Source: Candidatus Saccharimonadota bacterium
Lineage (GTDB): Bacteria > Patescibacteriota > Saccharimonadia > Saccharimonadales > UBA4665
Assembly (NCBI GenBank): GCA_963716945.1
Contig: OY970322.1
Location: 570,001-602,000 of the forward strand
DNA length: 32,000 nt
Reading direction: 5' to 3'
Shown: positions 1,629-29,455 of the stretch, piece after piece
How the letters are laid out: the number at the start of each line of letters is the position of its first letter
How positions within the stretch are numbered: the stretch's first letter is position 1
Notes under the pieces: generated by a model
What the model saw: only the letters and a program-made list of their open reading frames with translations
Told to the model about the DNA's origin: nothing
The model's database searches: none
Position numbers and translations under genes: made by a program

Positions 1629-3266
1629 ATGGCACTAAAGAGCAAAAATGAGTATGTCAAAGTAGCTTCCCACGAGGGCCGTAAAGGCGAAGTCAAGAAG
1701 GTAGTTCTCCTCTATTCCGGCGGTTTGGACACTTCGACTATGGTCAAATGGATCCAGGAAGAATACAAAGCCGAAGTCATTGCCCTGACGATCGACATCG
1801 GCCAGCAGACCGACGACCTGGAAGCCATTCGCCAGAAGGCGCTCGACCTCGGTGCCGCCAAAGCCATAGTCATCGACGCCCGCGAAGAGTTCGCCGAAGA
1901 GTACATCGCCCGCGGCATTAAGGCCAACGGCATGTACCAGGGCCGCTACTACTTGTCGACGCCGCTCGGCCGGCCGCTGCTGGCTAAGTGGGCCGTCAAG
2001 ATTGCCGCCCAGGAAGGCGCCGACGCCATCGCCCACGGCGCCACCGGCAAAGGCAACGACCAGATCCGCATGGAGGGCTCTGCCTTGGCGCTTAACCCCG
2101 ATATCAAGATCATCGCCCCGGTCCGCGAATGGGGCATGGGCCGCGACGAACAGCTGGAGTATTGCCGCCAGCACGGCATTCCGGTCAAGCAAACCAAGGA
2201 CAAACCCTATTCTTATGACGACAACATGTGGGGCGTGACCGGCGAAGGCGGCGAGATCGAAAACCCGGCCCTGGTACCGCCGCTCGAAAAGATTCTCCAG
2301 GTTTGCAAGACTCCCGAAAAGGCCAAGAACACTCCGGAGTACATCAAGCTGGAATTCGAAAAGGGCCTGCCGGTAGCCGTCGACAAGAAGCAAATGGGTC
2401 TGGTCGAGATCATCGGCCAGCTCAACAAACGCGCCGCCCAGCATGCTATCGGTATCGTCCACTTGCTCGAAGACCGGGTTATCGGCCTCAAGGTCCGCGG
2501 CATTTACGAGGCCCCGGCCGCCGAAACCATCATCACTGCCCACAAGGCCTTGGAGCGCTACACCTCGACCCGGCTGGAGAACGAGTTTAAGAGCATTGTC
2601 GATGAGAAATGGGCTTACTTATGTTACGGCGCCCTGTGGTTCGAGCCGCTGATGGACGACCTCAACGCCTACGAGGACAAAGTTAATGAAAAGATAACAG
2701 GCACCGTTACCGTCAAGCTGTTCAAGGGCCATGTCGAAGCCGTCGCCGTCGAGACGCCTAACACCATATTCGACGAGAAGCTAGCGACTTTCATGGAAGA
2801 CGGCAGCCACTTCAATCAGAACGCCTCGGCCGGCTTCATCGAGCACTACACTTTGCAAATGAAACTGGCCCAGCGCCGCAAGCATACCGCCTTGCTGGCT
2901 ATCGGCGGCCGCGACAAGAAGCTTAAGCTGCTGCCGCAGCTTAAGTCCCTCAACAGTATGGGGTACCAGCTGTATGCGACCTACAAGACCCATAAGTTCC
3001 TCAAGAGCCACGGTATCGAAGCCATCCTGGTCAATAAGATCAGCTCGCCCGAACTGAAGCCCAACCTGGCCGACCTGCTCGATGCCAACCGTTTCGATAT
3101 CATCATCAATATCCCGACCGGCACCGACCGCGAAGAGAGCAAGGCCAAAGAAAAGACCGACGGCCAGACCATCCGCGAAAAGGCCGTTAAGGCCAACGTC
3201 ACCCTGATTACTACCGTTTCGGTCGCCAAAGAAGTCGTTTCCAAGCTCGAGAAGGCCCGGGTGTAG
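1629..3266 (+). CDS. argG: Argininosuccinate synthase-like enzyme (aa ~1-410) fused to a C-terminal MGS-like (CarB allosteric-domain-like) module (aa ~415-545)
   Basis: N-terminal PP-loop YSGGLDTS, GATGKGNDQIRME and YSYDDNMWG are ArgG hallmarks. The tail HTALLAIGGRDKK...GYQLYATYKTHKFLKSHGIEAILVNK...FDIIINIPTG...IREKAVKANVTLITT aligns by eye to the C-terminal allosteric (MGS-like) domain of carbamoyl-phosphate synthetase large subunit. GAGG lies 6 nt upstream of the ATG. Confidence 0.85.
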   Translation: MALKSKNEYVKVASHEGRKGEVKKVVLLYSGGLDTSTMVKWIQEEYKAEVIALTIDIGQQTDDLEAIRQKALDLGAAKAIVIDAREEFAEEYIARGIKANGMYQGRYYLSTPLGRPLLAKWAVKIAAQEGADAIAHGATGKGNDQIRMEGSALALNPDIKIIAPVREWGMGRDEQLEYCRQHGIPVKQTKDKPYSYDDNMWGVTGEGGEIENPALVPPLEKILQVCKTPEKAKNTPEYIKLEFEKGLPVAVDKKQMGLVEIIGQLNKRAAQHAIGIVHLLEDRVIGLKVRGIYEAPAAETIITAHKALERYTSTRLENEFKSIVDEKWAYLCYGALWFEPLMDDLNAYEDKVNEKITGTVTVKLFKGHVEAVAVETPNTIFDEKLATFMEDGSHFNQNASAGFIEHYTLQMKLAQRRKHTALLAIGGRDKKLKLLPQLKSLNSMGYQLYATYKTHKFLKSHGIEAILVNKISSPELKPNLADLLDANRFDIIINIPTGTDREESKAKEKTDGQTIREKAVKANVTLITTVSVAKEVVSKLEKARV

Positions 3267-25059: not shown

Positions 25060-25091
25060 CGCAGGCAGTCGGATTAGGCTGCCTGCGTTTG
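25060..25091. terminator. Hairpin between convergent genes (candidate bidirectional terminator)
   Basis: CGCAGGCAG (25060-25068) pairs with CTGCCTGCG (25079-25087), giving a 9-bp perfect stem and a 10-nt loop. It is followed by TTTG on the + strand and by a T-rich run on the - strand. It overlaps the last codons of the GNAT-like gene. Confidence 0.4.
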
Positions 25092-25667
25092 CATGTCAAA
25101 GCGGCTGTTTAGCTCATAGGGCTGTTCCAGTTCGGCCACCCCGACCCGGCTAAGGTCGATAACCACACCGAAACCTATCTTGCGATGCTCAAGGTCCGCT
25201 TCAAACTGCCCTGACCGTTCCAGCAGCGCGATTGCCTCGTCGGCCGATATGGGCAGTTCGGCTTCGTGGCCGTCGATCGGGTCGGCATTCGTAAAACTCA
25301 GGCTATCTTCGCCGAATACCCGGCGCAGCGCCATGACGGTGTACTGGGAGTTGGCCTGGCCGCTGAGGCTTTCGATCTGGTTTTGCTTGGCTACGTAGCC
25401 CAGAGCGCTGATCAACCGCTTGCCGATGCCGCCTTCGCGGATGGACGGGTCAACCCTTAGGCCTAAAAATACCATTTCCCGCGTATTGCCGTCGGCATCA
25501 TCCCGGCCCATGGCGGCGTTGAAAGTGCAGCCATATGGCAGCTTAAGCCCCAAACGGACCTTGCCTATCGAGGTATCGTCTGACCATGAAGCTTCTACCG
25601 GACAATTCTGAAGATCGTTCAGTATAAAGCGGCGCTCGGCTTCCCGGCGTTTGGCCAAACTGTTCAT
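25074..25667 (-). CDS. GNAT-like N-acetyltransferase (tentative)
   Basis: 197-aa ORF with LRVDPSIREGGIGKRLISAL, which resembles GNAT motif A (R/Q-x-x-G-x-G/A). I recognise no other motif. Confidence 0.45.
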   Translation of the reverse strand: MNSLAKRREAERRFILNDLQNCPVEASWSDDTSIGKVRLGLKLPYGCTFNAAMGRDDADGNTREMVFLGLRVDPSIREGGIGKRLISALGYVAKQNQIESLSGQANSQYTVMALRRVFGEDSLSFTNADPIDGHEAELPISADEAIALLERSGQFEADLEHRKIGFGVVIDLSRVGVAELEQPYELNSRFDMQTQAA

Positions 25668-25705
25668 AAATAAACATTAACATAAAATAATCACTTTGAC
25701 AAGTA

Positions 25706-25713
25706 GTAGCTCA
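25706..25713. repeat. Left copy of the 8-bp direct repeat GTAGCTCA (putative target-site duplication)
   Basis: Abuts the left TIR. An identical 8-mer abuts the right TIR at 28344-28351. Confidence 0.75.
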
Positions 25714-25739
25714 GGCATGTCCCCCCAAAGCACAAGTAG
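25714..25739. repeat. Left terminal inverted repeat
   Basis: GGCATGTCCCCCCAAAGCACAAGTAG. It is the inverted match to 28318-28343 (23/26). Confidence 0.85.
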
Positions 25740-25800
25740 ACCTTTCAGGTGGGTAGATAGAGATCACAGTTATTTCTAAATATTATGAGATAATAGGGGG

Positions 25801-26301
25801 ATGGAGCCGAGACGACCTATAGGTAATTATGCTTTCATAGATTCTCAGAATCTATATATGAGTCTTGAGGAGTGCGGATGGCGGCTAGACTGGCGAAAGT
25901 TCAGAACGTATCTTAGAGAAAAGTATGCAGTGACTGATGCTTACGTATTCATAGGTTATATTTCAGCTCAAGAACCATTATATAAATTCTTACAAGAAGC
26001 TGGATTTACACTTATTTTTAAGGAGACCCAGAAGAGAGTTGATGGTTCATCTAAAGGTAATGTTGATGCCGAATTAGTTCTGAACGCTATGATAGAATAC
26101 CCGAATTATGATAAAGCGGTAATCATAACTGGTGATGGGGACTTCGCTTGCCTTATCACTTATTTAAAGAAACAAGATAAGTTACAAATGCTTCTTGTTC
26201 CCAATGAAGCTAAATATTCTGCACTACTCAAAAAGGCAGCAGCCAGCCAGTTGGCTTCAATTAGCAGTCTTCAAAAGAGGCTAGAATACATCCCTAAATG
26301 A
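25801..26301 (+). CDS. NYN-domain (LabA-like, PIN-related) putative ribonuclease
   Basis: NYAFIDSQNLY, GNVDAELV and VIITGDGDFACLI place the conserved Asp residues as in the NYN/LabA fold. 166 aa. Confidence 0.8.
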   Translation: MEPRRPIGNYAFIDSQNLYMSLEECGWRLDWRKFRTYLREKYAVTDAYVFIGYISAQEPLYKFLQEAGFTLIFKETQKRVDGSSKGNVDAELVLNAMIEYPNYDKAVIITGDGDFACLITYLKKQDKLQMLLVPNEAKYSALLKKAAASQLASISSLQKRLEYIPK

Positions 26302-26307
26302 AAAGCA

Positions 26308-26342
26308 CCCCTTAAGGACGGAACCTTAAGGGGGTCTTTTCG
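26308..26342. terminator. Rho-independent terminator after the NYN gene. It probably acts in both directions.
   Basis: CCCCTTAAGG (26308-26317) pairs with CCTTAAGGGG (26324-26333), giving a perfect 10-bp stem and a 6-nt loop. GTCTTTTCG follows on the + strand, and an A-run precedes the hairpin, which reads as a T-run on the - strand. Confidence 0.7.
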
Positions 26343-26460
26343 TGGTAATTACATCTCTAATTATACACATCACAAAGAAATAAGTCAATAGTTTTGTCAA
26401 GTTTAAGCATAAAAGATGTGAATGATCACAGATTCTTTGTAACTTCACTTTAGGCCTCAT
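26326..26460 (-). CDS. Candidate small ORF (44 aa, below the track cutoff). Hypothetical.
   Basis: My own translation gives MRPKVKLQRICDHSHLLCLNLTKLLTYFFVMCIIRDVITTKRPP. It is preceded by AAGAGGAGG, although the spacing to the ATG is short. Its stop sits inside the 26308-26333 hairpin. Coding status is unproven. Confidence 0.2.
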   Translation of the reverse strand: MRPKVKLQRICDHSHLLCLNLTKLLTYFFVMCIIRDVITTKRPP

Positions 26461-26502
26461 AGCCTCCTCTTAATAACTATTTAATAATCCCCCAAAGAGC
26501 CG

Positions 26503-26526
26503 TATCACAGGGGTTTGTGATATAAT
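26503..26526 (+). promoter_or_regulatory. Palindromic operator-like site overlapping an extended -10 element
   Basis: TATCACA-GGGGTT-TGTGATA (26503-26522) has 7-bp perfect arms. It is immediately fused to TGATATAAT, an extended -10 (TGn + TATAAT at 26521-26526). No good -35 element is present. Confidence 0.35.
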
Positions 26527-26555
26527 CGCTTTGTTCTAGTTTTGGCGGTTTTTTT

Positions 26556-26647
26556 ATTTACATTCGAAATGGGCAACCTATTTCGAACACAGTGAATGTA
26601 AATTTACTGCTGGAACTAGAACAACCTAGAAATGGGTTGTCCTTTTT
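26556..26647 (+). promoter_or_regulatory. Structured 5' leader: a long imperfect hairpin plus a terminator-like hairpin just before the RBS of the 26664 gene
   Basis: ATTTACATTC (26556-26565) pairs with GAATGTAAAT (26594-26603), with an inner GAAAT/ATTTC stem. ACAACC (26621-26626) pairs with GGTTGT (26635-26640) and is followed by CCTTTTT. The duplicated CAACCTA and GAAATGGG segments allow alternative pairing. Confidence 0.3.
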
Positions 26648-26663
26648 ATTTAAGGGAGGTTTT

Positions 26664-27098
26664 ATGAAGAAGGTCCTAATCCTAGCGGCAGTAATTATCA
26701 TCGGTTTGACAGGCGGAGTGATGGCTCTTACGTCTTCAAAGCCTAAACCAAAGGCTCAGAACCTCATTACTGTAAGCAAACCGATACAAGCTAAAGCGCC
26801 CGTCAGCCAACCTACGGTTACTGCTACGCCTGGCGCTCAAGTCGCTACCGCTTCTACTGCGCCCGATCCTGCTTGCCTTAGTCAAAAAGCTTCACAGTTA
26901 GTCTCTATCCAAACCCAAGAAACCCAAGTTCAGGCGCAAATAGACCAGATCACTGCAAGAATACGGGGCGAAATAGTCGGAGAAGCTGTAACACCGGCAG
27001 TTATGGCAATTGAAATCACAGATCAAACAGCTTCTCTTCAAAGCCAGTTAACCGCTCTAAAAGCTCAGTACGCTTCTGTTCAAGCAAAGGTTTGTTAG
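26664..27098 (+). CDS. Single-pass membrane/secreted protein with a Q-rich coiled coil. Hypothetical.
   Basis: The start is set at ATG 26664, with AAGGGAGG at 26652-26659. Features are MKKVLILAAVIIIGLTGGVMAL (signal/anchor), a P/T/A-rich linker, and Q-rich heptad-like segments (QTQETQVQAQIDQITARI, LQSQLTALKAQYASVQAK). Confidence 0.6.
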   Translation: MKKVLILAAVIIIGLTGGVMALTSSKPKPKAQNLITVSKPIQAKAPVSQPTVTATPGAQVATASTAPDPACLSQKASQLVSIQTQETQVQAQIDQITARIRGEIVGEAVTPAVMAIEITDQTASLQSQLTALKAQYASVQAKVC

Positions 27099-27439
27099 TG
27101 AAGATAAAAGTAGAAGAGGCGTTAGCCGTCATACTCCTTGTGCTCCTATGCTCCATAGGTTCTTACTATTTCGGCCATCACATAGGCTTCTCTACAGGCT
27201 ATACGACAGGTGAAGATAGAGGCTCTGCACTACAAGTAGCGCACGACAAACCTGTTCTTGCGTCAGCTTACAGCGCTAATACGAAGCTTACAGATCAATA
27301 TAACCAGCTATCGGATAACTACAATAACCTAAGAAACTCAGTTCTTAAATATATAAGCGTGGCTCAGTACCAGGCTAGTAGGCCAATTAGTTGTACCAGC
27401 AATACCTTACCCAATACGACTTTTACTAATTGTTTTTAA
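27092..27439 (+). CDS. Single-pass membrane protein with an N/Q-rich helical segment. Hypothetical.
   Basis: TTG 27092 or GTG 27098 start, overlapping the upstream stop (coupled). TM segment ALAVILLVLLCSIGSYYF, then TKLTDQYNQLSDNYNNLRNSVLKY, and a C-terminal Cys pair. Confidence 0.5.
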   Translation: MLVKIKVEEALAVILLVLLCSIGSYYFGHHIGFSTGYTTGEDRGSALQVAHDKPVLASAYSANTKLTDQYNQLSDNYNNLRNSVLKYISVAQYQASRPISCTSNTLPNTTFTNCF

Positions 27440-27525
27440 TTTCTTTAGGCTATAGTAGTTTCATGACTAAAACTAAATTTGATAAAGCTTTGGATAAGGT
27501 ATTCGGGCCTAAACGGAAGAAGTAG

Positions 27526-27831
27526 TTACTGTTTGTCTTTAATTTCTTGGAGAAGTTGTGTTTGCTTATTGGTTTGGTCTACTTGGCTCGACACGAAAGC
27601 AGCGAAAGCGATAATAACTCCAGCTAGGGTTATAAGAGCAATAATAAAACCTAATGTAGTTATTGCTTGAATTGTCGAGATTTGAGAATCCTGTCTTTCT
27701 ATTCTCTTTATGGCATCCTCTGCTTGGTTTTGAGTTTGTTTTATTTGAGTTGCAAGAGCAGATAGGACTTGTTGACTCTCAGAATCAATACTATTTTCAT
27801 CGGCTGCTTGAAATATGTTATCGTCACTCAT
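27526..27831 (-). CDS. Tail-region single-pass membrane protein with a Q-rich coiled coil. Hypothetical.
   Basis: 101 aa. It has an acidic N-terminus, QIKQTQNQAEDAIKRIERQDSQISTIQ, and the TM segment LGFIIALITLAGVIIAFAAFV. ATGA overlap with the upstream 27828-28238 gene. Confidence 0.55.
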   Translation of the reverse strand: MSDDNIFQAADENSIDSESQQVLSALATQIKQTQNQAEDAIKRIERQDSQISTIQAITTLGFIIALITLAGVIIAFAAFVSSQVDQTNKQTQLLQEIKDKQ

Positions 27832-28238
27832 ACTTTTCTAACTAAAAAATAAAACTTGTTATCATCCTGAAGACGCTTACCATTATCATAAAAACGCAGG
27901 TAGTAACGGCCAGGTTTTTTAAATTCAACTAGCATAAACCTCGCAGCAAAATCTGCATCTCCCTCAGTAAATTCACCTATAAGCTTAGAAGTCGCAAATA
28001 CGGTTTTGTCCGGAGCAATTATCCTAACTTCAGCTTGTGACTTGCCAGCAGTAACATTATTAATACTGCCCACCACAAAAAAAGACTGAAATGTACTTGT
28101 TTGATTTTCAAATATGCTAACAGCATTAAAGATGTCTATATACGACCATTTACCGGTTGCGGCATCACGAATGGCATTCTCGGTAGGTATCAGATATCTT
28201 ATGGTAGTTTGAGCGGACATAGGTACTTTATGAAACAC
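27828..28238 (-). CDS. Small soluble beta-rich protein. Hypothetical.
   Basis: 136-aa ORF (GTG 28238, or ATG 18 nt downstream). No TM segment and no motif I can name. Translationally coupled to 27526-27831. Confidence 0.55.
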   Translation of the reverse strand: MFHKVPMSAQTTIRYLIPTENAIRDAATGKWSYIDIFNAVSIFENQTSTFQSFFVVGSINNVTAGKSQAEVRIIAPDKTVFATSKLIGEFTEGDADFAARFMLVEFKKPGRYYLRFYDNGKRLQDDNKFYFLVRKV

Positions 28239-28317
28239 CTCTCTGGTTAGTGTATCAATTGTACCGATATTTTTCTAAAACTGCACGACTTATCCATTCA
28301 AATGGATAAGTTTAGGG

Positions 28318-28343
28318 CTACTTGTGCTTTGGGGGGAAGGGCC
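28318..28343. repeat. Right terminal inverted repeat
   Basis: CTACTTGTGCTTTGGGGGGAAGGGCC. It is the inverted match to 25714-25739. Confidence 0.85.
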
Positions 28344-28351
28344 GTAGCTCA
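28344..28351. repeat. Right copy of the 8-bp direct repeat GTAGCTCA (putative target-site duplication)
   Basis: Abuts the right TIR and is identical to 25706-25713. Confidence 0.75.
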
Positions 28352-28375
28352 TAAGGCTGCACTGGGCTTTATGTT

Positions 28376-29455
28376 TTAAAATTTCCGGGCGCCGCAAAAC
28401 CTGACCAGCTGGCGTAATTCTTGCTTGGCCCCCCGGTCAAGGTCCAGCCGGTCGATGTGCCGAAAGGCGGTTTGCTCCAGCTTCGAGACGTCCTGTTTGA
28501 GGCGGTCCTGTAGCCGGCCGCGGCGCATGGCTTGCTGGACGTAGCTTATATCATCGGCACCGGCAGCCGGGTTGCCGAAGACGGCCAAGAGCCGGCGCCG
28601 TTCGGCGGCACCGGCGGCTTGCCAGAGGTAGTAATAGAGCAGCGTCTTTTTGCCTTCGCGGATGTCCGAGCCGACCGGCTTGCCGATGTCTCCCGCCAAG
28701 CCCAAACTGCCGAGCTCATCATCCCTTATCTGGAAAAGCGTGCCGGCCGCCATACCGATGTCGTGCAGCCGCCGGCGCGTAGCCGCCGGTTGTCCGGCTA
28801 GGATGGCGCCGGCTTCCAGGGGCAGGGCTAGCGAATAAGTGGCCGTTTTGGCGCGCATGACGGCGTAAATGTCGCGCTTGGGCGGCGGCACCGGCAAGGA
28901 CCCCAAATAGATGTCTTGCATCTGGCCGGCACAGACGGTAGTCAGCTCGCGTATGAAGAGCCGGCTTAATTGCAGGCTGCCCGTGGTTTGGGATTTCGCC
29001 GACGCCAGCAGTTCGAACCCCAGAAACAGTACCATATCGCCGGCGCACAATGCCAGCCCTTCGCCGAGCCGCGCGGGGTCGGCCAGGCCCTGGCGGGCTG
29101 CCAGCTTGCCGTACTGGGCGTGGATCGAGGGCCGGCCGCGCCGGAGTTCGTCTTGGTCGATAATATCGTCATGGATTAATAGTCCGGCGTGGACCAGCTC
29201 GATGGCGGCCGCGGCATTGAGGACGGCCGGCGGCAGCTCCTGGCCCGGCTGGTTGCCGCTGCAGATCGTATAACTGTAGCAAATCAGGCTGCCGCGCAGC
29301 AGCTTGCCGGCAACGGCGAAATCCCGCAACCGGTCGATGAAGTCCGCGCTCCAGGCTAGGCCGCCGCCCGACAGCTTGCGGTGGCGGGCGATAAAAGCTT
29401 CCAGTTCGGCCAGCACCGCCGGCCGGTAAGCTGTGACAGGGTCGATATTTTTCAT
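28376..29455 (-). CDS. trans-Polyprenyl diphosphate synthase (FPP/GGPP-synthase family; chain length not determinable)
   Basis: First Asp-rich motif LLIHDDIIDQDELRRGRPS, then KTA.YS, and a second motif FQIRDDELGSLG...GKPVGSDIREGKKT. ATGA overlap with the upstream fusion gene. Confidence 0.88.
   Translation of the reverse strand: MKNIDPVTAYRPAVLAELEAFIARHRKLSGGGLAWSADFIDRLRDFAVAGKLLRGSLICYSYTICSGNQPGQELPPAVLNAAAAIELVHAGLLIHDDIIDQDELRRGRPSIHAQYGKLAARQGLADPARLGEGLALCAGDMVLFLGFELLASAKSQTTGSLQLSRLFIRELTTVCAGQMQDIYLGSLPVPPPKRDIYAVMRAKTATYSLALPLEAGAILAGQPAATRRRLHDIGMAAGTLFQIRDDELGSLGLAGDIGKPVGSDIREGKKTLLYYYLWQAAGAAERRRLLAVFGNPAAGADDISYVQQAMRRGRLQDRLKQDVSKLEQTAFRHIDRLDLDRGAKQELRQLVRFCGARKF

What the first reader, a model, noticed from the sequence alone, without database searches (positions are those of the whole stretch)
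25801..28238. Cargo gene set: NYN nuclease-like protein plus three single-pass Q/N-rich coiled-coil membrane proteins and a small beta-rich protein
The element carries three transcription units:
- an NYN/LabA-like putative RNase (25801-26301), followed by a strong terminator;
- a coupled pair, 26664-27098 and 27092-27439. Both have an N-terminal TM anchor and an extracytoplasmic Q/N-rich helical region, and end near Cys residues;
- a coupled pair on the other strand, with an ATGA overlap at 27828-27831. It encodes a 136-aa soluble beta-rich protein and a 101-aa protein with a cytoplasmic Q-rich coiled coil and one TM.

I recognise none of the four non-NYN proteins. A nuclease combined with small membrane proteins, on a horizontally acquired mobile cassette, is the pattern seen in abortive-infection, superinfection-exclusion and toxin-antitoxin modules. 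This combination does not match any named defence system I know. It is the best candidate in the window for an undescribed system, but its function is pure inference.
Basis: partly seen in the sequence, partly recalled or inferred. Interest (0 to 1): 0.7.

Follow-up and report, generated by a model that had tools for sequence, protein, structure and literature searches.

The report
Foreign islet: NYN plus DUF6941 pair
A 2.7-kb stretch of foreign, low-GC DNA in a soil bacterium carries five real genes that are not one system but three unrelated modules, one of them a conserved but uncharacterised two-gene pair that temperate phages also carry in the places where they keep host-protection genes.

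Summary
All five ORFs are real and lie where described. They sit in a 40%-GC islet (25668-28375) inside a 58%-GC chromosome, bracketed by an imperfect 36-nt inverted repeat. The proposed five-gene system is not supported.

1. The NYN protein is a genuine LabA-type NYN with its acidic residues intact. About 80 relatives at 51-65% identity have no conserved neighbour, and none lies near a relative of the other four genes.
2. P2 and P3 have no detectable relatives. They look like exported, Cys-stapled helical proteins.
3. P5 (136 aa, probably 130) is a divergent DUF6941 β-sandwich. P4 is its translationally coupled partner, with an N-terminal coiled coil and one TM.

In 9 of 10 independent homolog loci, a P4-like gene overlaps the 3' end of the P5 homolog. 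Five groups of temperate Firmicutes phages (A403, AP45, phiETA-type, 42E, StB12-type) carry a DUF6941 gene with an overlapping or 2-nt-spaced coiled-coil, C-terminal-TM partner. It always sits in lysogeny or accessory ("moron") loci.

The best reading is a mosaic islet whose only conserved multi-gene unit is P5-P4. That pair may be a prophage-type exclusion or abortive-infection module, but this function is inferred, not shown. Interest is moderate.

The parts
25668..28375 (.). Low-GC foreign islet between a GNAT-like gene (25074-25667, -) and a polyprenyl synthase gene (28376-29455, -)
   Evidence: GC is 0.395 against 0.584 for the rest of the window. The sequence is identical in the independent assembly L001. 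There is no DNA match in the phage or plasmid collections.
25708..25743 (+). Left arm of an imperfect 36-nt inverted repeat (perfect 19-nt core CCCCCCAAAGCACAAGTAG at 25721-25739)
   Evidence: 83% complementary. The core occurs only twice in the window, against 0.02 expected. I found no target-site duplication and no transposase.
28314..28349 (-). Right arm of the inverted repeat (core at 28318-28336)
   Evidence: Each arm lies upstream of an inward-facing gene (NYN or P5), so the repeat could be either an element end or a shared upstream element.
25801..26301 (+). P1: stand-alone NYN/LabA-like predicted ribonuclease, 166 aa
   Evidence: PF01936 at 68.7 bits against a cutoff of 24.2. 2QIP at E=7e-12, with D14, D89, D112 and D114 aligned to conserved acidic residues. 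About 80 homologs at 51-65% identity without a conserved neighbour.
26308..26333 (.). Bidirectional intrinsic-terminator-like hairpin after NYN
   Evidence: 10-bp stem with 6 GC pairs and T-runs on both strands.
26532..26623 (+). 92-nt extended hairpin in the putative 5' leader of P2-P3. It follows an extended -10 motif (TGTGATATAAT, 26517-26527) and precedes a small terminator-like hairpin (26621-26640) and the ribosome-binding site AAGGGAGG.
   Evidence: Region 26500-26666 folds at -59.3 kcal/mol against -33.0 +/- 3.5 for shuffles, z = -7.57. No Rfam match.
26664..27098 (+). P2: 144-aa ORFan with an N-terminal signal/anchor, a Pro/Thr/Ala-rich linker and a two-helix hairpin with Cys71 and Cys144 at its ends
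   Evidence: Strong ribosome-binding site. Hydropathy. AlphaFold2 single-sequence model with helices 69-106 and 111-141 at pLDDT about 84-90. No relatives.
27092..27439 (+). P3: 115-aa ORFan (113 aa if it starts at GTG 27098) with an N-terminal TM anchor, an N/Q/S/T-rich region and Cys101/Cys114. It overlaps the P2 stop codon.
   Evidence: No family or viral match.
27526..27831 (-). P4: 101-aa membrane partner of P5, with a roughly 60-aa Q-rich helical N-terminal region, one TM (62-80) and a 21-aa tail. Its ATG overlaps the P5 stop (ATGA).
   Evidence: It aligns with the downstream partners of 9 P5 homologs and shares an L-G-F…A core. It matches no known family.
27828..28238 (-). P5: DUF6941-type cytosolic beta-sandwich protein (136 aa from GTG 28238; more likely 130 aa from ATG 28220)
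   Evidence: 103 representative clusters at E<=1e-3. 27 of 41 family members hit PF22091. hhalign to phage DUF6941 proteins gives 95.7% probability, E=8.5e-9. All-beta model, pLDDT 78.
28288..28311 (.). Perfect 11-bp-arm palindrome (ACTTATCCATT-CA-AATGGATAAGT) just upstream of a TACAAT -10-like hexamer for P5-P4; operator-like
   Evidence: Read from the sequence. Three related loci have a different palindrome at the equivalent place. Function is inferred only.

Best explanation
The region is a recently acquired 2.7-kb low-GC islet in a high-GC soil bacterium, probably Candidatus Dormibacteraeota. It is a mosaic of three functionally independent modules, not one system.

**Module 1: NYN.** A stand-alone NYN/LabA-type predicted ribonuclease with an intact acidic active site, its own promoter region and its own terminator. 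This gene family moves between phyla on its own.

**Module 2: P2-P3.** A bicistron encoding two lineage-specific exported or anchored helical proteins, probably stabilised by disulfides. They are surface proteins of unknown role.

**Module 3: P5-P4.** This is the only conserved multi-gene unit. P5 is a cytosolic DUF6941 beta-sandwich. P4 is translationally coupled to it and is a small membrane protein whose cytoplasmic coiled coil precedes a single TM helix.

**Inferred mechanism for P5-P4.** The two proteins are made in fixed ratio and form a complex at the inner face of the membrane. P5 acts as the sensor or regulator and P4 as the membrane-acting effector. Like the accessory genes that prophages keep in the same genomic positions, the pair protects the carrier cell against incoming phage. 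It would do so either by blocking entry (superinfection exclusion) or by collapsing the membrane on infection (abortive infection).

**Shown:** gene reality, family assignments, the synteny of P5 with its partner, the phage locations, and the independence of NYN.

**Inferred:** physical interaction, topology, and any anti-phage role.

**My probabilities:** mosaic with P5-P4 as the conserved pair, about 0.85. Exclusion or abortive-infection function for the pair, about 0.3.
For: **Reality and foreignness.**
- Five long ORFs against 0.115 expected.
- GC 0.40 against 0.58.
- Identical in a second assembly.

**NYN.**
- Pfam at 68.7 bits; 2QIP alignment with conserved acidic residues.
- 80 relatives across CPR, Omnitrophota, Elusimicrobiota and others.
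- No recurrent neighbour (at most 5 of 80), and lower GC than the flanks (0.36 against 0.43).
- No relative of P2-P5 nearby.

**P5.**
- Exhaustive HMMER search: 103 clusters, 58 of them at E<=1e-10.
- DUF6941 hit in 27 of 41 family members; phrog_5881 in 9 of 41.
- hhalign to the phage proteins at 95.7% probability.

**Pair synteny.**
- 9 of 10 independent homolog loci have an overlapping downstream gene with P4's architecture and a shared motif.
- The pair has lower GC than its flanks in 9 of 10 loci.

**Phages.**
- A403, AP45, phiETA and 42E show the order repressor -> ... -> DUF6941 -> overlapping coiled-coil/C-terminal-TM gene -> integrase, all on one strand.
- StB12 and five related viral contigs (six loci in all) carry the pair after the lysin gene; in three of them an integrase gene follows, and the other three end at the record or locus end.
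- The StB12 partner is 35% identical to phiETA ORF2 (E=5e-12). The two genes therefore move together between two accessory loci.

**Precedent.** The post-amidase accessory locus of staphylococcal prophages encodes a membrane-anchored abortive-infection protein, PdpSau (PMC10127798).
Against: - No functional data exist for any DUF6941 protein; a full-text search found no paper.
- P5 itself scores below the Pfam gathering threshold (19.6 against 27 bits).
- The CPR-type and phage membrane partners share architecture and position but no detectable sequence homology (hhalign probability 4.7%). They could be analogous rather than orthologous.
- No member of the family hits a PADLOC defence model convincingly.
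- In bacterial contigs the pair sits among housekeeping genes (ruvAB/ruvC, ychF/uvrB), not in defence islands. In one Saccharimonadales contig the P5 homolog ends a type IV pilus operon and lacks the P4-like partner.
- Foldseek gives only generic Ig-like sandwiches (TM 0.35-0.57 in PDB).
- Only 10 bacterial neighbourhoods could be retrieved.
- P3 was never searched in the large protein database, and P4 was placed in its family through synteny only.
Confidence: 0.55

Rival explanations
1. One reading: all five genes form one new defence, abortive-infection or toxin-antitoxin system, in which the NYN nuclease is the effector and the small membrane proteins are sensors or effectors.
For: - All five genes lie in one foreign islet bracketed by one inverted repeat.
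- NYN weakly matches a PADLOC 'NYN' model (E=4e-6).
- In phages A403 and AP45, a nuclease of a different family (membrane-anchored SNase) sits directly upstream of the DUF6941 pair.
Against: - No relative of P2-P5 lies near any of 80 NYN homologs.
- NYN has no conserved neighbour.
- None of 10 P5-homolog loci has an NYN gene.
- NYN has its own terminator and faces P5-P4 in convergent orientation.
- phiETA, 42E and StB12 carry the pair without any nuclease.
Confidence: 0.06
2. P5-P4 is a lysis-related module. P4 would be an XhlA- or holin-like membrane-disrupting protein and P5 its inhibitor or timer, left behind from a prophage lysis cassette.
For: - The A403 partner weakly hits phrog_689 'holin' (E=2.4e-4), and P4 touches the same family at E=0.46.
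- The StB12-type pairs lie right after the holin-lysin genes.
- From my own knowledge of PBSX, the coiled-coil plus C-terminal-TM architecture is that of XhlA.
Against: - The matches are not significant for P4.
- In four phage groups the pair is in the repressor-integrase operon, far from the lysis genes and on the lysogeny strand.
- Those phages have their own holin and lysin elsewhere.
- The bacterial copies have no endolysin nearby.
Confidence: 0.1
3. P5-P4 is an addiction-type (toxin-antitoxin-like) module. P4 would be a membrane toxin and P5 its protein antidote, stabilising the mobile DNA that carries them.
For: - Tight translational coupling of a soluble protein with a small membrane protein.
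- Lower GC than the flanks in 9 of 10 loci, and scattered locations.
- IS1595 transposases adjoin the pair in 2 loci.
- Palindromic, operator-like sequences lie upstream, which would fit autoregulation.
Against: - There is no similarity to any known toxin or antitoxin family.
- P5 has no DNA-binding fold.
- At 101-211 aa, the partner is larger than typical membrane toxins.
- This rival overlaps mechanistically with abortive infection and is hard to separate from it by sequence alone.
Confidence: 0.12
4. P5-P4 has an ordinary cell-envelope or pilus-associated role in small-genome (CPR-type) bacteria. It arrived here by chance as passenger DNA with no role in conflict with phages.
For: - In a Saccharimonadales MAG the P5 homolog is the next gene after a pilB-pilC-pilin-pilM-pilN cluster, on the same strand.
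- The other copies lie among housekeeping genes.
Against: - The pilus linkage is seen once in ten loci, and that copy lacks the P4-like partner.
- Location varies and GC is atypical.
- The same module is carried by temperate phages of Firmicutes, which have unrelated envelopes.
Confidence: 0.12
5. The four non-NYN ORFs are not expressed genes. The islet would be decaying foreign DNA, and the public gene finders were right not to call them.
For: - None of the four was called by NCBI, ENA or Logan annotation.
- P2 and P3 have no relatives.
Against: - ORF lengths are far beyond chance.
- P2 has a strong ribosome-binding site, and starts and stops are coupled.
- P5 is full-length and 48% identical to its best homolog, and the conserved partner is intact.
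- A P4-like gene was also missed by the gene finder in another genome, so non-calling reflects atypical composition.
Confidence: 0.05

Closest known systems
NYN domain / LabA-like family (Pfam PF01936; solved example VPA0982, PDB 2QIP)
   Same: P1 matches over the full domain. It keeps the acidic residues that define the PIN-like NYN active site (D14, D89, G-D112-G-D114) and is the same size as single-domain LabA-like proteins.
   Different: It is a solitary gene with no fused OST-HTH or other domain and no conserved partner. It belongs to a subgroup that is about 55-63% identical across very different phyla and lower in GC than its surroundings. Activity and substrate are untested.
DUF6941 (Pfam PF22091) / phrog_5881, e.g. 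Anoxybacillus phage A403 AVO22623, Staphylococcus phage phiETA ORF3, 42E ORF031, StB12 AFD22286, Aeribacillus phage AP45 gp03
   Same: - P5 has about the same length (about 130-141 aa) and an all-beta sandwich fold.
- The profile-profile match runs over 114 columns (95.7% probability).
- A small membrane-protein gene overlaps or directly abuts its 3' end.
   Different: - P5 scores below the Pfam threshold on its own (19.6 against 27 bits).
- It belongs to a divergent branch found on low-GC bacterial contigs. One is labelled Saccharimonadales and the rest are unlabelled.
- Its partner has a 19-49-aa tail after the TM, whereas most phage partners end at or within three residues of the TM (AP45's has about 15 more).
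- The partner shares no detectable sequence with the phage partners.
Prophage accessory ('moron') defence genes between repressor and integrase or after the lysin, e.g. PdpSau of S. aureus prophages (PMC10127798). From my own knowledge: lactococcal Sie2009 and the mycobacteriophage Sbash gp30/gp31 pair.
   Same: The phage DUF6941 pairs occupy the same genomic positions. They include a small membrane-anchored protein and are on the lysogeny-expressed strand.
   Different: - There is no sequence or fold relationship to PdpSau, which has an N-terminal TM and an OB fold.
- No phenotype is known for any DUF6941 pair.
- The window copy is not in a prophage. It is in a 2.7-kb islet with no integrase.
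XhlA-type / holin-like small membrane proteins (phrog_689)
   Same: A cytoplasmic coiled coil followed by a single C-terminal TM helix, at a size of about 90-200 aa.
   Different: P4's match is not significant (E=0.46). No Pfam XhlA or holin hit appears in any of 10 P4-family members. There is no adjacent endolysin.
Non-autonomous transposable elements carrying passenger genes (inverted-repeat-bounded cassettes)
   Same: A 36-nt imperfect inverted repeat with a 19-nt perfect core sits within about 40 nt of both GC-content boundaries.
   Different: - There is no transposase or remnant of one.
- I found no target-site duplication.
- The window holds no other copy, and the two 19-mer matches in metagenomes are at chance level.
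- The repeat is unrelated to the IS1595 copies next to two homologous pairs.

Membership tests
NYN / LabA-like (PF01936) | Profile match above the curated threshold over the whole domain | tested here: met
   68.7 bits against a cutoff of 24.2, residues 12-148 on model positions 5-139 of 145.
NYN / LabA-like (PF01936) | Conserved acidic residues of the PIN-like active site | tested here: met
   D14, D89, D112 and D114 align with the conserved Asp residues of 2QIP, in F-I-D-x-Q-N, G-N-V-D and G-D-G-D-F.
NYN / LabA-like (PF01936) | Ribonuclease activity | not testable with these tools
   This needs an enzyme assay.
DUF6941 (PF22091) / phrog_5881 | Profile match above the Pfam gathering score | tested here: not met
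   P5 scores 19.6 bits against a cutoff of 27 (E=1.2e-3) and has no PHROG hit on its own.
DUF6941 (PF22091) / phrog_5881 | Homology shown through intermediate sequences or profile-profile comparison | tested here: met
   - 27 of 41 P5 relatives hit PF22091, best E=4.5e-12.
- 9 of 41 hit phrog_5881.
- hhalign of the P5 family against phage DUF6941 proteins gives 95.7% probability, E=8.5e-9 over 114 columns.
- The best structural match is the A403 protein, which passes the Pfam threshold at 29.3 bits.
DUF6941 + tail-anchored partner module (defined here) | A downstream gene, overlapping or nearly abutting, that encodes a coiled coil followed by a single TM | tested here: met
   - Window: ATGA overlap.
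- 9 of 10 bacterial homolog loci.
- All 5 phage groups.
DUF6941 + tail-anchored partner module (defined here) | Sequence homology of the partner across the whole module family | tested here: not met
   P4-like partners are related to one another, and the staphylococcal phage partners are related to one another. The bacterial set against the phage set gives only 4.7% hhalign probability.
Known anti-phage defence systems (PADLOC-DB 2.0) | Component proteins match the models of one named system | tested here: not met
   Only NYN gives a partial hit, to PDLC01154 at E=4e-6. P2-P5 have no hit at E<0.01, and the P5 family has none.
Phage spanin / holin lysis genes | Significant match to Rz-like spanin or holin families, and linkage to an endolysin | tested here: not met
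   P3 against phrog_1403 gives E=0.2. P4 against phrog_689 gives E=0.46 and against phrog_89 gives E=0.81. There is no endolysin in the window near the islet.
Insertion sequence / transposon | Terminal inverted repeats | tested here: met
   36 nt at 83% complementarity, with a 19-nt perfect core.
Insertion sequence / transposon | Transposase gene, target-site duplication, and further copies | tested here: not met
   - No transposase ORF or remnant.
- The flanks CAAGTAGT and CATAAGGC are not a duplication.
- No further copy in the window, in the viral collection, or (beyond chance) in metagenomes.
- The rest of the genome could not be searched.
Toxin-antitoxin module | Toxicity of one product neutralised by the other | not testable with these tools
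   This needs expression experiments. No known toxin or antitoxin family matched.

The most novel reading that the evidence does not exclude
The DUF6941 beta-sandwich and its translationally coupled, tail-anchored coiled-coil membrane partner form a previously unrecognised, widespread two-gene anti-phage module that works by superinfection exclusion or membrane-collapse abortive infection. The module is shared between temperate Firmicutes phages (phiETA, 42E, StB12, A403, AP45) and ultra-small CPR bacteria such as Saccharimonadales. The window would then record its cross-phylum transfer, with a solitary NYN nuclease, into a Dormibacterota chromosome on an inverted-repeat-bounded cassette.
Probability: 0.2. 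Interest if true: 0.6.

Novelty: new member of a known kind. Interest (0 to 1): 0.4.

Why it matters
The scan's candidate for an undescribed five-gene defence system breaks down into ordinary parts: a promiscuous stand-alone NYN gene, two ORFan surface proteins, and one conserved pair. That lowers its value as a new system.

The follow-up did yield a concrete, testable lead. DUF6941 is a catalogued family with no known function. It is almost always followed by a coupled coiled-coil/TM partner, and well-studied temperate phages, including S. aureus phage phiETA, keep this pair in their lysogeny or accessory loci. Its role could therefore be tested directly in a tractable host.

Two further points matter for scans of this kind:
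- Standard gene finders missed four real genes in a compositionally foreign islet.
- DNA whose closest relatives are in CPR bacteria can sit in a high-GC soil bacterium.

Tried and rejected
**DNA similarity.** A search of the whole islet against the phage and plasmid collections found nothing.

**Word-indexed protein searches.** P5 and P2 returned nothing. Only the exhaustive HMMER search found the P5 family.

**BLAST-level searches.**
- tblastn of P5 and of two distant relatives against phages and plasmids found nothing. The phage link came from Foldseek plus profile methods.
- Viral-contig scans for P2, P3, P4 and P5 found no relatives.
- Family alignments A1 and A2 were too divergent for the pattern scan.

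**The inverted repeat as a widespread element end: rejected.**
- There are no viral matches, and the two metagenome 19-mer matches share nothing else with the islet.
- A similar-looking repeat around the L086 cassette is a local hairpin.
- There is no link to the IS1595 copies next to two homologous pairs.

**Resemblances that did not hold.**
- L086's convergent 118-aa anchored protein looked like P2 or P3, but there is no significant similarity.
- The 166-aa gene upstream of the best P5 homolog has the same length as NYN but is not NYN.

**RNA and tRNA.** There is no Rfam family and no tRNA in or next to the islet.

**P4 family.** It gave only noise against Pfam and PDB.

**P5 fold.** The PDB search gave generic Ig-like sandwiches. 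The UNC119/PDEdelta/RhoGDI hits have TM of only 0.35-0.44, so I did not build on a lipid-binding reading.

**Literature.** No paper mentions DUF6941. PdpSau is a positional precedent only, not a relative.

**Assembly chimera: rejected.** The independent assembly is identical.

Full report
**1. The observation**

They fill a sharply bounded low-GC stretch, about 0.40 GC against 0.58 for the rest of the window. The stretch lies between a GNAT-like gene and a polyprenyl synthase gene.

Five ORFs of at least 100 aa in 2708 bp is far beyond chance. One thousand dinucleotide shuffles gave a mean of 0.115 and never more than two.

The sequence and hydropathy analysis confirm these details:
- the ATGA overlap between P5 and P4
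- the P2/P3 overlap
- the strong ribosome-binding site of P2
- the terminator after NYN
- the C-terminal Cys residues
- the single hydrophobic segments in P2, P3 and P4

An independently assembled public contig (L001) is 100% identical over 13.3 kb, including both junctions. The islet is therefore not an assembly chimera.

Public gene finders called only NYN. The exact products of the other four ORFs are absent from a 15-billion-protein collection. I attribute that to the atypical composition, because a clearly conserved P4-like gene was also missed in another genome.

I make two small corrections. Homologs align only from P5 residue 10-13, so its start is probably the ATG at 28220. P3 may start at GTG 27098.

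**2. Setting**

The host side of the window is a purine-biosynthesis cluster (purL, M, F, D, K, C, B, H), then DUF308 and GNAT-like genes. On the far side of the islet are a polyprenyl synthase, a 660-aa protein and a histidine kinase. This is not a defence island. There is no tRNA.

One housekeeping protein, argininosuccinate synthase, falls in a 90%-identity cluster with a Candidatus Dormibacteraeota MAG protein. The host is therefore probably a high-GC soil Dormibacterota bacterium. The source contig is 1.10 Mb.

An imperfect 36-nt inverted repeat with a perfect 19-nt core lies within about 40 nt of each GC boundary. I could not show that it is a transposon end:
- there is no transposase or remnant of one
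- there is no target duplication
- there are no other copies; the two metagenome matches are at chance level and share nothing else

Each arm lies upstream of an inward-facing gene (NYN or P5), so a shared upstream element is an alternative reading.

**3. NYN is genuine but independent**

P1 matches PF01936 at 68.7 bits. It aligns to the solved LabA-like protein 2QIP with D14, D89, D112 and D114 conserved.

A scan of one genome per species returned 80 relatives at 51-65% identity. Most are in Patescibacteria (Peregrinibacteria, Saccharibacteria, Parcubacteria), Omnitrophota and Elusimicrobiota.

- tblastn found no relative of P2, P3, P4 or P5 within 10 kb of any of them.
- Clustering all ORFs within 3 kb of these NYN genes gave no recurrent partner. 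The best family was present in 5 of 80 loci.
- The NYN genes are on average lower in GC than their loci, 0.36 against 0.43.

This is a solitary gene that is prone to transfer.

**4. P2 and P3 are ORFans**

Nothing matched in Pfam, PHROGs, PADLOC or NCBIfam, in the fetched loci or in viral contigs. P2 also found nothing in the large protein database. P3 could not be searched there.

A single-sequence AlphaFold2 model of P2 shows three elements:
- a signal or anchor
- a disordered Pro/Thr/Ala-rich linker
- a two-helix hairpin (69-106 and 111-141, pLDDT about 84-90), with Cys71 and Cys144 at its ends

This fits an exported, disulfide-stapled helical hairpin. Small anchored Cys-containing proteins also sit next to several P5 homologs, but they show no sequence similarity to P2 or P3.

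**5. P5-P4 is a conserved pair**

An exhaustive HMMER search with P5 found 103 representative clusters, 58 of them at E<=1e-10. The best is 48% identical, and lengths are about 125-165 aa.

- 27 of 41 aligned members hit Pfam DUF6941, best E=4.5e-12.
- 9 of 41 hit phrog_5881.
- P5 itself stays below the Pfam threshold at 19.6 against 27 bits.

I retrieved 10 independent genomic neighbourhoods. In 9 of them, a gene of 104-142 aa overlaps or abuts the 3' end of the P5 homolog. Its product has P4's architecture: a hydrophilic, helical N-terminal region, one TM and a short tail. They share an L-G-F…A core, and pairwise BLASTP E-values reach as low as 1e-23.

The exception is a Saccharimonadales contig. 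There the P5 homolog follows a type IV pilus cluster and is followed by a multi-TM protein.

The pair lies at unrelated positions (ruvAB/ruvC, ychF/uvrB, sugar-nucleotide genes). It is lower in GC than its flanks in 9 of 10 loci and adjoins an IS1595 transposase twice. None of these loci has NYN.

**6. The phage connection**

The P5 model is an all-beta sandwich (pLDDT 78, pTM 0.72). PDB matches are generic Ig-like domains. The best matches among predicted viral structures are uncharacterised proteins of 134 and 138 aa (TM 0.64 and 0.53).

The first of these is Anoxybacillus phage A403 CDS 35864-36268. It passes the Pfam DUF6941 threshold at 29.3 bits and hits phrog_5881 at E=1e-40. The next CDS overlaps it and encodes 184 aa with a long coiled coil and a TM at the extreme C-terminus.

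tblastn from the phage proteins found the same arrangement in Staphylococcus phages StB12, phiETA, 71, DSP07 and 42E, and in Aeribacillus phage AP45.

- In A403, AP45, phiETA and 42E the order is repressor -> (ImmA, nuclease or small ORFs) -> DUF6941 -> overlapping coiled-coil/C-terminal-TM gene -> integrase, all on one strand.
- In StB12 and five related viral contigs the pair follows the lysin. In three of them an integrase gene comes next; the others end at the record or locus end.
- The StB12 partner is 35% identical to phiETA ORF2 (E=5e-12). The two genes therefore travel together between two different accessory loci.

Profile-profile comparison links the P5 family to the phage DUF6941 proteins at 95.7% probability, E=8.5e-9. 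It does not link the bacterial partners to the phage partners (4.7%). For the partner, conservation is therefore positional and architectural only.

**7. Mechanism**

Shown:
- a soluble beta-sandwich and a small bitopic membrane protein are co-inherited and translationally coupled across very distant lineages
- in phages they sit where lysogen-expressed accessory genes are kept

Precedent: the post-amidase locus of staphylococcal prophages encodes PdpSau, a membrane-anchored abortive-infection protein (PMC10127798). From my own knowledge, repressor-integrase intervals hold superinfection-exclusion genes in lactococcal and other phages.

Inferred: P5 binds the cytoplasmic coiled coil of P4 and controls a membrane activity that excludes or aborts infecting phage. 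I put about 0.3 on that.

The rivals are:
- a toxin-antitoxin-like addiction module
- an XhlA/holin-like lysis accessory
- an envelope or pilus-related role
- non-expressed DNA

No defence model matches and no paper mentions DUF6941.

**8. Verdict**

The interpretation as one new five-gene system is not supported: the islet is a mosaic, and NYN is unrelated to the rest.

What remains of interest is the DUF6941 pair. It is a catalogued but unstudied family, and I document here its conserved partner and its placement in prophage accessory loci. This makes it a moderately interesting, experimentally tractable lead, for example through phiETA ORF3-ORF2 in S. aureus. It is not a categorically new system.

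Interest is 0.4. Novelty is 'new member of a known kind'.

Noticed in passing
window 26500-26666 (+): The spacer upstream of P2 folds exceptionally well as RNA (-59.3 kcal/mol against -33.0 +/- 3.5 for shuffles, z = -7.6). It contains a 92-nt extended hairpin (26532-26623) right after an extended -10 motif (TGTGATATAAT), then a small terminator-like hairpin and the ribosome-binding site. There is no Rfam match. It could be an attenuator or riboregulator, or a palindromic DNA element.
   Followed up: partly
window 26360-26388 (-): A near-consensus sigma-70-type promoter (TTGACT-17-TATAAT, 11 of 12) on the minus strand points straight into the bidirectional NYN terminator (26308-26333). It would give a transcript of only about 50 nt, antisense to the NYN 3' end.
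   Followed up: no
window 25699-25706, 25732-25739, 28318-28325: The octamer ACAAGTAG occurs three times at the islet ends: twice in direct orientation on the left (once just outside the inverted repeat) and once inverted on the right. It could be a protein-binding site.
   Followed up: no
L086 5975-6000, L087 about 1740-1765, L091 about 640-665: Three related P5-homolog loci share the palindrome TTGCATGGTGCTTAAGCATGCAA just upstream of the gene. The window has a different perfect palindrome (28288-28311) at the equivalent place. This suggests operator-controlled expression, yet there is no regulator gene nearby.
   Followed up: partly
L086 4913-5854 (-); L094 4667-5254 (-): IS1595-family transposase genes lie directly next to the DUF6941 pair in two of ten loci. 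In L094 the transposase gene overlaps the 3' end of the partner gene by 4 nt.
   Followed up: partly
L092 1-8396 (Saccharimonadales MAG GCA_035946175.1, contig DASYZQ010000027.1): Here the DUF6941 homolog is the gene after a type IV pilus cluster (pilB, pilC, two pilins, pilM, pilN and two more genes) on the same strand. It is followed by a multi-TM protein instead of a P4-like partner.
   Followed up: partly
L095 34522-35682 (phage A403); L098 2022-3431 (phage AP45): In both thermophile phages a membrane-anchored SNase/Excalibur nuclease gene sits directly upstream of the DUF6941 pair. This echoes the window's 'nuclease plus membrane proteins' with an unrelated nuclease family. phiETA, 42E and StB12 lack it.
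   Followed up: partly
L099 2832-3416 (phage 42E ORF022): A lipoprotein gene with a lipobox (LILGAC) lies between the repressor and the DUF6941 pair. This is the typical look of a superinfection-exclusion lipoprotein, so the interval appears to be a multi-cassette accessory hotspot.
   Followed up: no
L002-L081 (NYN homolog loci): The solitary NYN gene is 51-65% identical across Patescibacteria, Omnitrophota, Elusimicrobiota, Chloroflexota and others. It is usually lower in GC than its locus (for example 0.37 against 0.54 in L008), which suggests frequent cross-phylum transfer of a single gene.
   Followed up: partly
window 26664-28238; L084 6387-6725: Public gene finders missed four real ORFs in the window's islet and a conserved P4-like gene in another genome. 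Protein databases built from such calls will therefore under-represent genes in compositionally foreign islets.
   Followed up: yes
protein P0097: A 491-aa protein contains five tandem repeats that each weakly match the C-terminal part of P5. The DUF6941-like sandwich therefore also occurs as a repeat module.
   Followed up: no
window 1629-3266 (+): The argininosuccinate synthase here is at least 90% identical to a Candidatus Dormibacteraeota MAG protein (HZL08107.1). This points to a Dormibacterota host, whereas the islet's genes have their nearest relatives in low-GC CPR lineages.
   Followed up: partly
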